From Isurus oxyrinchus (Eukaryota), in contig JANJGN010000035.1 of the NCBI GenBank assembly GCA_026770705.1, positions 13,950,001 to 14,014,000 of the forward strand: a stretch of 64,000 nucleotides of DNA, given 5' to 3'. Shown piece by piece: positions 39,001 through 42,000 of this stretch. Position numbers: made by a program. Within the stretch, counting starts at the first letter, position 1. Every line of letters starts with the position of its first letter.

Positions 39001-42000
39001 AAAATATTGCAGATCAAAGAACCCAAACTACCCTTGATTGAATCCAGTTCAGGCACACCCACAGTCTAAGCCTCCATTTAAATAAATTAATTTCCATTTG
39101 TAAAAATTAATACCTTCATAACATGAATGATTCAAATCAGCGGCCGAGCCCACCCACAAAACCTATTCATTTCAGCGCCTCAGGCACGAGCGTGCGCAGT
39201 GCTGCCAATAGGATACCTTTCCAAACTGGACACGGGTATCATTTTTAATGGCACATTTCCGTGCTGACAAAATGGAGAGTGGTTACATCTTATGACACTG
39301 CAAAATAGCGAGTGGTTGGTGGCAGTGAGAAGATTGATGAGGAGGAGGCAAAGTGAGGATTACGGCCAGTGGGTGTTGGAAATGTTCTCTAGAGGGCGGA
39401 TCTCTTTGCAATGGAATGAAAAATAAAGGAAAGAGACTCCAATACCTGTTGTGAGACTTTGAAGAGAGCTGTCTGAAAATAAACTTTGTGAGACCGAATA
39501 AGTCTGCCGGTAAAACTTCAGGCTTTTAATTTGTGAGTCTGGGTTTCAAGTCCAGACTCAAGCATTGCTGATTCGCCCCGAACTTCAACTCTATCGAAAG
39601 AATTCGGAGCTGAAAGGAACTCACCTTGGCTGCGCCTTTATAGTGTGTGACTTGCCAGACATTTGTAAAATTTAGGTGTCTTCTGCTCTGAAGAACGGTC
39701 ACAGGGATTCAAAACGTTAACCATCTTTCTCTCTCCGCAGCTGTCGCCAGACCTGATCAGTTTCTCCAGTGTTTTCTTTGGCTATCTGTTTTATTGCTGT
39801 CCTACCCAGGATGTAGATGAAATTCAGATTAAGTAGGGGGTGTTTGTAGTTATCACAATAGTAATCTTGTAGAGGATTGTAACCGTTTACAATCCTTCTC
39901 ATGGCAATAGATGTTTGATTTAACTTGAATAAAAACCTCTTGAGACTGGGTTGTCTTATTACCTCTGAAATGAAAGCATGCATCTTGAAATTGCAAAAAA
40001 AATAAAAATAAATATTATGACAGTAGATTCAAGTTTCCTTCTGGGTTTGAGGAACTCAGCATTTACCATCGGCTGTGCCATAATAATTGGCCAAAGTTCC
40101 TGCCACCCGTGAGATGCTGAAAAGCAAGTCATTGCCGCCGAGTTTTCTTCCTGACCCTATCTGATTGAGAAGTGGCTCCAAAGCCAGAATCTTTGCACCT
40201 TATCTCAGTTTGAGAAGTTTCAATCTTTTTCTTTCTCTGTCAGAATGTTGTTCCACATTTCCTACTAGCATTTTTTTTTACTGCTTTTAGGCTTGGCTCT
40301 TGATTGGCCGAGATATTCCAATTTTTCAGGCTCGGGAAAAAGGAGCTTTCTTCATATATAACCTTTAATGCAATAAAGCGACCGCGATATGTCCAATCAT
40401 CATCCGCCTGCGGTAAAGGCAATAGGAGAAAGAATGATGCGAATTGTGCTCTTCATTAACCATTAAAAATATGATTGAAGCAGCTTCCACCCCAGGCCAA
40501 TAAAATATTGGTGTTTCTCTGTTGACTGTCTTTTAGAAAGTCACAAACAGGGGCTCGAGCAACATCCGCTGACTTAAGGGACTTTTCCAACGTTCTATAT
40601 GGTCATGGCTCATCTTGTTTCTAAAGACTACCTTCCTGAACTGTAGTTTTCAGGAAGAAAACTCGGCGGCAATGACTTGCTTTTCAGCATCTCACGGGTG
40701 GCAGGAACTTTGGCCAATTATTATGGCACAGCCGATGGTAAATGCTGAGTTCCTCAAACCCAGAAGGAAACTTGAATCTACTGTCATAATATTTATTTTT
40801 ATTTTTTTTGCAATTTCAAGATGCATGCTTTCATTTCAGAGGTAATAAGACAACCCAGTCTCAAGAGGTTTTTATTCAAGTTAAATCAAACATCTATTGC
40901 CATGAGAAGGATTGTAAACGGTTACAATCCTCTACAAGATTACTATTGTGATAACTACAAACACCCCCTACTTAATCTTCGTTCTGCCAGGACACAGAGA
41001 AATATCCAAACTTGTCCTGAAAACAATAAGCGCAGTTGACCTGAGTTTGAAATTCAGAATCTACAAAAGCCTATGGATAAAAAGATTTTGGAAGGTACGT
41101 TAATGAAAGTACAGTCGCTGGAGACTGTAGTGCTGACTGTCAGATTCTCAGAACAAGGCTTCAGCCATTATCACCGAGAGGAGGAAATGTTTTCATTCAT
41201 AGTCTTGTGAACCTTCTGAATTCTAGACAGGGGAGAACTGCGCATGCTCGCTGATTACAATCGAAGCTGATGTCGATAATTCCTGGTCTTCTGTCAGAAC
41301 AAAAGGGACACAAGGAAATTTCAGGAAGGTCACATTGGCTGGCAGATGCACAATGACCATATTAAAATTTAGAGTGGTCCTGTTTTGGCAGTAGATGCTG
41401 CTACTGCTTCTATTGCTGAAATTCTTACAGACACGGGCCAGAGCAATGCGCAGGTTTCAGTGACCTCAGAAAGGAAGGAGAGCAAATTCCTAATTTTAGT
41501 GGCTTAATCTGGAATTCAATTTGCAAACCGCGGGTTCCGATGTCCATTAAAGTGTTAAAATTATGAGTGGACCAATGGCGATGTCTTTGGTTTTCAATTT
41601 GTGATGAGGGGAGAAACTTATTCAGCCTGTCCTGTAGGACAGAAAGTTCTACTCCAAACAAGGTGCACTGTTTACAAAAAAATCTCGCTGTGAATTCACC
41701 AGAAATTCGTGGAAATACATTAACGGCAGAAACAGTTTGACCAATATTTGGCGGACACACAAGCATGCACGTTGAGGCTGTAGGAAAATCCAGAATCAGC
41801 TTCTTCGGGCTCCAGCAAACAACTGAGATGAAAGATCAACCGAATAGGAACTTGAACCCTGGACCCTCAGACGAAAGGTCTGATACTCTACCGACTGAGC
41901 TATCCCATCTACATTCTGCACGCGCTGAAATTTCTGACTTCAGGCACAGCAGAACAGTGGGAGTGTGTTTATTATATTCAAGTCAGTTAGCATATTTCCC

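What the first reader, a model, noticed from the sequence alone, without database searches (positions are those of the whole stretch)
39826..40978. Apparently perfect 329 bp inverted repeat around a 495 bp CCAAT-containing spacer in otherwise old, decayed DNA
Seen: arms 39,826-40,154 and 40,650-40,978 look identical, even across homopolymer runs, while every other repeat pair here is visibly diverged. The arms do not resemble any TE in the window and I see no canonical target-site duplication. The spacer has CCAAT/ATTGG motifs in both orientations (about 40,303, 40,393, 40,497). The structure lies about 650 bp upstream of the candidate leader exon and between two tRNA-Lys relics. Inference: it is a very recent inverted duplication, or is kept homogeneous by conversion/inversion (a flippable promoter-like segment), or templates a long hairpin RNA (endo-siRNA source, ADAR substrate). 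An assembly artefact is also possible.
Basis: partly seen in the sequence, partly recalled or inferred. Interest (0 to 1): 0.7.

Follow-up and report, generated by a model that had tools for sequence, protein, structure and literature searches.

The report
Young perfect inverted duplication, probably inert
A 329-base stretch of non-coding DNA has been copied in reverse just 495 bases away, most likely by a recent replication or repair slip, and nothing found here suggests that it has a function.

Summary
Arms 39826-40154 and 40650-40978 are 329 nt and 100% complementary, with a 495-nt unique spacer. Among 45 self-matches of at least 100 nt in the window, this is the only one above 81.8% identity. 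Identity drops from 100% to nothing at all four arm edges. The unit has no second copy in the 64 kb. It has no coding signal and no RNA-family signal. It has no usable target-site duplication, no subterminal repeats, and no plasmid, phage or E. coli match.

Best reading (about 0.5): a young, local switch-and-return template-switch or fold-back repair event inserted a reverse copy of the left arm beyond the spacer. It is probably inert. An 8-mer at the left arm's inner end recurs 10 nt before the right arm, which fits serial microhomology switching.

Rivals are a low-copy long-TIR DNA transposon (0.2), an assembly artefact (0.15), and an older repeat kept identical by conversion or serving as a hairpin-RNA or invertible-promoter locus (below 0.1).

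No eukaryotic DNA collection or reads were available. Genome-wide copy number, read support and orthologues therefore stay unchecked.

The parts
39826..40154 (.). Left arm of the inverted repeat (329 nt), inferred to be the original copy
   Evidence: 100% complementary to 40650-40978. GC 0.374, 5 CpG.
40155..40649 (.). Unique 495-nt spacer
   Evidence: Not self-complementary. Fold z-score -0.83. Five CCAAT/ATTGG motifs against 1.44 expected. TATATAA-like word at 40355, 37 nt after the CCAAT at 40318.
40650..40978 (.). Right arm (329 nt), inferred to be the inserted reverse-complement copy
   Evidence: TC begins both the arm and the following flank.
40147..40154 (+). 8-mer CTTCCTGA at the inner end of the left arm (D1)
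   Evidence: one of 7 occurrences in the window on both strands (3.28 expected).
40631..40658 (.). Mini-hairpin across the spacer/right-arm junction. The same 8-mer (D2, 40632-40639) lies 10 nt before the right arm and pairs with the arm's first bases.
   Evidence: (10 pairs, 8-nt loop).
39873..39896 (.). Small internal palindrome (10-bp stem, 4-nt loop) inside the left arm. Its mirror lies at 40908-40931.
39682..39812 (-). Context: decayed copy of dispersed repeat family X, which starts within about 3-20 nt of the repeat's left edge
   Evidence: Self-blast and alignment A1.
39490..39563 (+). Context: left tRNA-Lys-like relic
   Evidence: Alignment A2 to the right relic, 49 invariant columns of 103. 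Not found by ARAGORN or Rfam.
41837..41909 (-). Context: right tRNA-Lys(TTT)-like relic
   Evidence: ARAGORN. Rfam tRNA 33.8 bits, E 1.5e-4.

Best explanation
This is a young, local inverted duplication, an interrupted palindrome made in one mutational event, and it is probably functionless.

Inferred ancestral order: left flank, 39826-40154, 40155-40649, then the present right flank (40979 onward). A growing 3' end at a replication fork or a repairing break had reached about 40649. It left its template and copied the same-polarity strand backwards from 40154 to 39826. It then returned and resumed at 40979. The result is a reverse-complement insert (the right arm) separated from its source by the 495 nt between the switch points.

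A possible detail: the 3' end first folded back on GAA/TTC and copied the 8-mer at 40632-40639. It then re-annealed on the identical 8-mer at 40147-40154 and continued for 321 nt.

Shown: the structure, perfect identity, sharp edges, uniqueness in the window, and the lack of TE, coding or RNA hallmarks. Inferred: the mechanism, which arm is the copy, the youth, and the lack of function.
For: - Identity: 0 differences in 329 sites gives a 95% upper bound of 0.0091 on arm-to-arm divergence. That is at most 4.4% of the distance of the next most similar pair in the window (81.8%) and 2.2% of the 68% segmental duplication.
- Sharp edges: homology stops abruptly at both inner and both outer edges, with no diverged continuation into flanks or spacer. 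An old repeat patched by conversion would not be expected to look like this.
- Not TE-like: no TSD around the unit or around either arm, no subterminal direct repeats, no second copy in 64 kb.
- Junction clues: TC starts both the right arm and the right flank. The left arm's innermost 8-mer recurs 10 nt before the right arm. From the four occurrences elsewhere in the window, I estimate about 0.002 as the chance of one lying within 20 nt of a given junction. This estimate was made after seeing the pattern.
- Not a simple read artefact: the spacer is not self-complementary, and the right flank continues colinear with the old duplicated segment.
- Literature: switch-and-return template switching that copies a fragment in reverse complement and creates inverted repeats and hairpins is described in PMC5453318 (passages read) and in PMC8794818 and PMC10710096 (listing and abstract starts only). 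PMC10766186 (passages read) states that interrupted palindromes are unstable and rare in natural genomes, which fits youth.
Against: - The copied fragment (329 nt) is far longer than the events of a few tens of bases treated in PMC5453318.
- Microhomology at the junctions is only 1-3 nt, and the 8-mer clue was noticed after the fact.
- No empty site, orthologue or paralogue could be compared. The paralogous position in the older segmental duplication falls left of window base 1.
- Genome-wide copy number is unknown, so a low-copy mobile element is not excluded.
- The left edge sits within about 3-20 nt of the start of an old dispersed-repeat copy. This model leaves that coincidence unexplained.
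- No reads were available to prove the structure exists in the animal.
Confidence: 0.5

Rival explanations
1. A non-autonomous DNA transposon of foldback or long-TIR type: 329-bp terminal inverted repeats around a 495-bp core, recently inserted.
For: The architecture fits: long perfect TIRs, a short non-coding core, and sharp edges. If the TIR is read 7 nt inward, a TTAA flanks both ends, as for TTAA-targeting superfamilies. A 10-bp-stem palindrome lies 48 nt from each outer end.
Against: No TSD of any length from 2 to 12 nt at the real edges except TC, which is not TA. The TTAA reading needs 3 further complementary bases by chance. The bases after TTAA are GT, not the RR/AGGRR terminus given for Kolobok and T2-MITEs (PMC6004289, passages). 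No subterminal direct repeats. No other copy or fragment in 64 kb of repeat-rich DNA. No transposase-like ORF. No internal copy of the termini in the spacer, as a DIRS-type element would have. Cut-and-paste transposition does not by itself make two TIRs identical.
Confidence: 0.2
2. An assembly or polishing artefact: the second arm does not exist in the animal, or two similar arms were made identical by consensus polishing.
For: Perfect identity even across A8 and G5 runs. Interrupted palindromes are reported as rare in natural genomes (PMC10766186). Amplification can create artificial palindromes in long reads (PMC6218980, listing and abstract start only).
Against: The window has no N and no gap nearby. 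The spacer is not palindromic, and the sequence returns to the original orientation after 329 nt, so two chimeric junctions would have had to survive consensus. No plasmid, phage or E. coli match for 39700-41100.
Confidence: 0.15
3. An older inverted repeat kept identical by arm-to-arm gene conversion, possibly functional. It could be a hairpin-RNA (endo-siRNA or editing) source, or a segment whose CCAAT-bearing spacer flips by recombination between the arms.
For: If transcribed through, the unit folds into a 329-bp perfect stem (-731 kcal/mol). The spacer holds 5 CCAAT/ATTGG motifs against 1.44 expected, including one of the window's 11 matches to the 9-mer NF-Y-type pattern I scanned for, and a TATA-like word 37 nt after a CCAAT. 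A related CCAAT-bearing motif recurs at 42815-42853 and 428-459.
Against: No diverged remnant of longer arms. Arm GC (0.374) is below flank GC (0.42-0.43), the opposite of GC-biased conversion. Three AATAAA hexamers lie in the first arm met by a transcript from either side. The spacer fold is unremarkable. No Rfam family was found. No recombinase-like ORF appeared among the 18 ORFs scanned. The CCAAT excess reaches only the top 1% of windows and was chosen after the fact.
Confidence: 0.08

Closest known systems
Switch-and-return template-switch mutations (four-point model; PMC5453318, passages read)
   Same: [quoted passage not shown] This creates a perfect inverted repeat with a spacer and a potential hairpin. 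No TSD forms and little or no microhomology is involved.
   Different: Described events involve about tens of bases. Here the copied fragment is 329 nt and the switch spans about 500-800 nt. No ancestral sequence is available to prove the event.
Fold-back and ODIRA-type interrupted palindromes at replication forks or breaks (PMC10766186, passages; PMC10766183, listing only)
   Same: Template switching between strands at short inverted repeats makes inverted copies separated by a short spacer. Here a small hairpin sits at one junction.
   Different: Those events make large inverted triplications or amplifications (kb to Mb) with open-ended arms. Here a single 329-nt insert returns at once to the original template.
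TTAA-targeting MITEs of the Kolobok superfamily (T2-MITE; PMC6004289, passages) and foldback elements (recalled)
   Same: Short non-coding unit bounded by inverted repeats. A TTAA can be read near each end.
   Different: The terminus after TTAA is GT, not RR/AGGRR. The TIRs are far longer and perfectly identical. There is no second copy in the window, and no TSD at the true edges.
Hairpin-RNA (hpRNA) and inverted-repeat endo-siRNA loci of flies, mouse oocytes and plants (recalled, no paper read here)
   Same: A long perfect inverted repeat with a loop of a few hundred nt, born by inverted duplication.
   Different: No evidence of transcription, small RNAs or a target gene. The arms show no coding similarity and carry AATAAA hexamers.
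Invertible promoter segments of bacteria and the yeast 2-micron FLP system (recalled)
   Same: Inverted repeats bracketing a segment with promoter-like motifs.
   Different: Those systems use dedicated site-specific recombinases. None is seen here, and this is a methylated eukaryotic chromosome (CpG o/e 0.51). Any flipping would depend on general homologous recombination.

Membership tests
Class II DNA transposon / MITE / foldback element | Terminal inverted repeats | tested here: met
   329-nt perfect inverted repeats.
Class II DNA transposon / MITE / foldback element | Target-site duplication of the length typical for a superfamily, directly flanking the TIRs | tested here: not met
   Lengths 2-12 tested. 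Only TC/TC was found at the true edges. TTAA or TA appear only if the ends are moved 6-10 nt inward.
Class II DNA transposon / MITE / foldback element | Multiple dispersed copies | tested here: inconclusive
   No further copy in the 64-kb window. The rest of the genome could not be searched because no eukaryotic DNA collection was available.
Kolobok / T2-MITE | TTAA target plus RR (AGGRR) terminus (PMC6004289) | tested here: not met
   The bases after the inward TTAA are GTAGG.
DIRS-like retroelement remnant | Inverted terminal repeats plus an internal complementary region matching the termini, and RT / tyrosine recombinase ORFs (features recalled) | tested here: not met
   No match of the arm termini inside the spacer. 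No Pfam hit for ORFs of the unit.
Two independent insertions of one retroposon in opposite orientation | Each copy has its own TSD, a tRNA/7SL-type head or A-rich tail at an end, and other copies nearby | tested here: not met
   No TSD around either arm alone. No tRNA-like hit in the arms. No other copy. The arm is not related to the 43-bp satellite (133 of 200 shuffles score as high).
Template-switch / fold-back inverted duplication | Reverse-complement copy of adjacent sequence, no TSD, abrupt junctions with 0 to a few nt of microhomology | tested here: met
   Also the 8-mer recurrence at the junction.
Template-switch / fold-back inverted duplication | Ancestral (empty) state lacking one arm in an outgroup, paralogue or other allele | not testable with these tools
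   The paralogous position lies outside the window. No related genomes or reads were available.
Hairpin-RNA / endo-siRNA locus | Transcription through both arms and small RNAs mapping to them | not testable with these tools
   No expression data. Only the potential fold could be computed.
Conversion-maintained palindrome | Arms identical within a species but diverged between species, often with raised GC | tested here: inconclusive
   Arm GC 0.374 is below flank GC 0.42-0.43, and there are no diverged arm extensions. Both points speak against, but no cross-species comparison was possible.

The most novel reading that the evidence does not exclude
The repeat is a newborn or conversion-maintained regulatory RNA locus in a vertebrate. 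One form is a 329-bp perfect hairpin precursor for endo-siRNAs or editing. The other is a CCAAT/TATA-bearing spacer that flips between two orientations by recombination between the arms and drives transcription outward into either arm.
Probability: 0.05. Interest if true: 0.75.

Novelty: new member of a known kind. Interest (0 to 1): 0.25.

Why it matters
If real in the animal, this is a clean and unusually long example of a one-step inverted duplication. Its switch points are still unblurred by later mutation. That makes it useful for studying how replication or repair errors create interrupted palindromes and the raw material for hairpin RNAs in a vertebrate genome. Such structures are fragile, so it may also be polymorphic. 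Nothing found here indicates a present function, so it is mainly of interest as a record of a mutational mechanism.

Tried and rejected
- Coding content: Pfam on 10 ORFs and 8 ORFs of the unit gave nothing real. The only row was Sortilin-Vps10 at E 0.23, 10.6 bits against a cut-off of 33. HMMER of the arm ORF 40573-40845 against 1,835,955,588 representatives gave 0 hits.
- RNA families: 0 hits at gathering score in the whole window. In 39000-42200 at E up to 10, only the weak tRNA and four sub-threshold rows appeared.
- Hammerhead-ribozyme impression: I recalled such a motif in repeat family X. Rfam at E up to 1 on 32500-34200 gave 0 hits, so I dropped it.
- Larger old palindrome: left flank 36000-39825 against right flank 40979-45000 showed only chance matches.
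- Paralogue comparison: the window holds an old direct duplication (156-24131 against 42510-61432), but the repeat's counterpart would lie left of base 1. tblastx between the two copies showed no open conserved frame.
- Relation of the arm to the 43-bp satellite: not significant.
- Old retroelement TSD at the left edge (9-mer 36115 / 39818): 106 of 2000 shuffles give such a match, so it is weak.
- Taxon from repeat ORFs: (963 candidates, none at E up to 0.001). One search gave 1 hit, an unnamed eukprot protein, which I did not fetch or follow. The atlas gave a GIY-YIG lead only (carried by 20% and 18% of the members of the second- and third-ranked clusters).
- Vector or contaminant: no match in plasmids, phages or E. 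coli.
- The bacterial promoter/terminator scan is irrelevant to a eukaryote, apart from flagging the junction hairpin.

Full report
**What is there.** The sequence holds a perfect inverted repeat exactly as described. The arms are 39826-40154 and 40650-40978, 329 nt and 100% complementary, around 495 nt of unique sequence. Chance cannot produce this: in 20 shuffles of 39000-42000 the longest exact inverted word was 10-14 nt. Identity holds across a G5 run and an A8 run.

**Genomic setting.** The window has no N. CpG is depleted (observed/expected 0.51, against GpC 0.995). It carries decayed retroelement ORFs. One gives a GIY-YIG lead in the protein atlas (scores 0.96-0.97, with GIY-YIG on 18-20% of the members of the second- and third-ranked clusters) and one eukaryotic relative. 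The window also holds a 43-bp satellite and no SRP/Alu-type or other Rfam family at gathering score.

I read it as a methylated, repeat-rich vertebrate-type chromosome. My recollection that these repeats look elasmobranch is unverified. I do not take it for human, and no tool objected.

Window self-comparison shows an old direct segmental duplication, 156-24131 colinear with 42510-61432 at about 63-71% identity. No conserved open frame links the two copies. The repeat lies about 1.5 kb upstream of the second copy. Its paralogous position would fall left of base 1, so no in-window ancestor is available.

**How unusual it is locally.** Of 45 self-pairs of at least 100 nt, the repeat is 100% identical. 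The other 44 have median identity 68.0% and maximum 81.8%. Zero differences in 329 sites bounds arm divergence below 0.0091 at 95%. That is at most 4.4% of the distance of the next most similar pair and 2.2% of that of the segmental duplication. The repeat is either much younger than everything around it, homogenised, or not real.

**Anatomy.**
- Homology ends abruptly at all four edges. The left flank (36000-39825) against the right flank (40979-45000) gives only chance matches, and the spacer is not self-complementary.
- Neither arm nor spacer has another copy in the window. Only a 39-nt CCAAT-bearing motif (40292-40330) resembles 42815-42853 and 428-459, which are paralogues of each other.
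- No ORF of the unit matches Pfam. The 90-aa arm ORF has 0 relatives among 1.84 billion representatives.
- Rfam finds nothing in 39000-42200 except the weak tRNA-like relic at 41837-41909.
- The arm has no subterminal direct repeats, only a 10-bp-stem palindrome.
- It is unrelated to the satellite (133 of 200 shuffles score as high).
- The spacer's fold is ordinary (z -0.83; 21 of 100 shuffles fold as well).
- The whole unit would fold into a 329-bp stem if transcribed.

**Transposon test.** At the true edges the only direct repeat is TC/TC. A TTAA or TA can be read only by moving both ends 6-10 nt inward, and neither arm alone has a TSD. The TTAA reading would need three further complementary bases by chance. 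The bases after it are GT, whereas Kolobok and T2-MITE termini are given as RR/AGGRR (PMC6004289, passages). The spacer holds no internal copy of the termini, so a DIRS-type layout is not met. A low-copy long-TIR element stays possible because the genome could not be searched.

**Artefact test.**
- There are no gaps in the window.
- There is no plasmid, phage or E. coli similarity for 39700-41100.
- A duplex or fold-back read would give a palindrome with no unique spacer, and the sequence would keep running in inverted orientation.
- Here the sequence returns to the original orientation after 329 nt and continues colinear with the old duplication.
- Two chimeric junctions would have had to survive consensus. 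That is possible, but it is not the simplest reading.

**Junction details.** The left arm ends ...CTTCCTGA at 40147-40154. The same 8-mer recurs at 40632-40639, 10 nt before the right arm, so it forms a small hairpin with the arm's first bases (10 pairs, 8-nt loop). The word occurs 7 times in the window on both strands against 3.28 expected, and 7 of 100 shuffles reach 7. From the four occurrences elsewhere, I estimate about 0.002 as the chance of one lying within 20 nt of a given junction. I noticed this after looking, so it counts only as a clue. TC starts both the right arm and the right flank.

These fit a serial template switch with four steps:
1. A 3' end that had reached about 40649-40651 folds back on GAA/TTC.
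2. It copies the 8-mer at 40632-40639.
3. It re-anneals on the identical 8-mer at the left arm's inner end and copies 321 nt further, to 39826.
4. It returns to the original template.

On this reading the right arm is the insert. This is inference.

**Literature.** PMC5453318 (passages read) describes switch-and-return copying of a fragment in reverse complement, which creates inverted repeats and hairpins, typically over tens of bases. PMC8794818 and PMC10710096 (listing and abstract starts only) extend this to the birth of RNA hairpins. PMC10766186 (passages) states that interrupted palindromes are unstable and rare in natural genomes, and describes strand switching at short inverted repeats. 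The present case would be an unusually long member of this class.

**Functional readings.** The spacer has 5 CCAAT/ATTGG motifs against 1.44 expected. 1.0% of sliding windows and 1 of 129 non-overlapping windows reach 5. One of the window's 11 matches to the 9-mer NF-Y-type pattern I scanned for lies at 40301, and a TATA-like word at 40355 lies 37 nt after a CCAAT.

This is suggestive but weak and was selected after the fact. Arm GC (0.374) is below flank GC (0.42-0.43), so there is no sign of long-term GC-biased conversion. Each arm shows three AATAAA hexamers in the sense in which an incoming transcript would meet it first (39928, 40001, 40007 and their mirrors). That does not favour read-through hairpin transcripts. 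Transcription, small RNAs and spacer orientation cannot be tested here.

**Unexplained points.**
- The left edge lies within about 3-20 nt of the start of a decayed copy of dispersed repeat family X (alignment A1).
- A 9-mer at 39818-39826 recurs at 36115-36123, beside the GIY-YIG relic. It might be an old retroelement TSD, but 106 of 2000 shuffles give such a match.
- The two tRNA-Lys-like relics face each other, yet nothing else in the flanks is symmetric.

**Verdict.** The most likely explanation is a young one-step inverted duplication with no function (0.5). Next come a low-copy long-TIR transposon (0.2), an artefact (0.15), and a conversion-kept or functional repeat (below 0.1).

Unchecked, because no eukaryotic DNA, read or expression data were available: genome-wide copy number, read support, orthologous and allelic states, and expression. 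No supplementary files were consulted.

Noticed in passing
window 156-24131 and 42510-61432: An old direct segmental duplication. At least 20 colinear blocks at about 63-71% identity, with the offset shrinking from 42.35 kb to 37.3 kb. No conserved open reading frame links the copies in tblastx.
   Followed up: partly
window 7897-8734 and 47810-48880: Arrays of a 43-bp satellite (19.5 copies in the first array), present in both copies of the segmental duplication, so older than it.
   Followed up: partly
window 32782-33316(+), 33542-33852(-), 36216-38869(-): Decayed retroelement relics with a GIY-YIG-like ORF (atlas lead, one eukprot relative at E 7.5e-16). They include an inverted pair at about 81% identity and a dispersed repeat family X with at least 7 copies in the window. 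My recalled hammerhead-ribozyme resemblance in family X was not supported by Rfam.
   Followed up: partly
window 41030-41088 and 41185-41243: A second, old inverted repeat (59-nt arms, 73% complementary, 96-nt spacer) only 52 nt to the right of the perfect repeat. It could be a decayed MITE-like unit or chance (self-blast E 2e-4).
   Followed up: no
window 40292-40330, 42815-42853(-), 428-459(-): A shared motif of about 35 nt with paired ATTGG/CCAAT boxes. It occurs in the spacer and at paralogous sites of both copies of the segmental duplication (81-82% identity).
   Followed up: no
window 36115-36123 and 39818-39826: A direct 9-mer, TGAAATTCA, at the two ends of the roughly 3.7-kb retroelement-relic region. 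It might be an old target-site duplication ending exactly at the repeat's left edge. 106 of 2000 shuffles give such a match.
   Followed up: partly
window 22042-22858 and 59521-60242: Long C/A-rich low-complexity tracts that give spurious proline/threonine-rich ORFs of up to 261 aa, at paralogous positions in the two duplicate copies.
   Followed up: no
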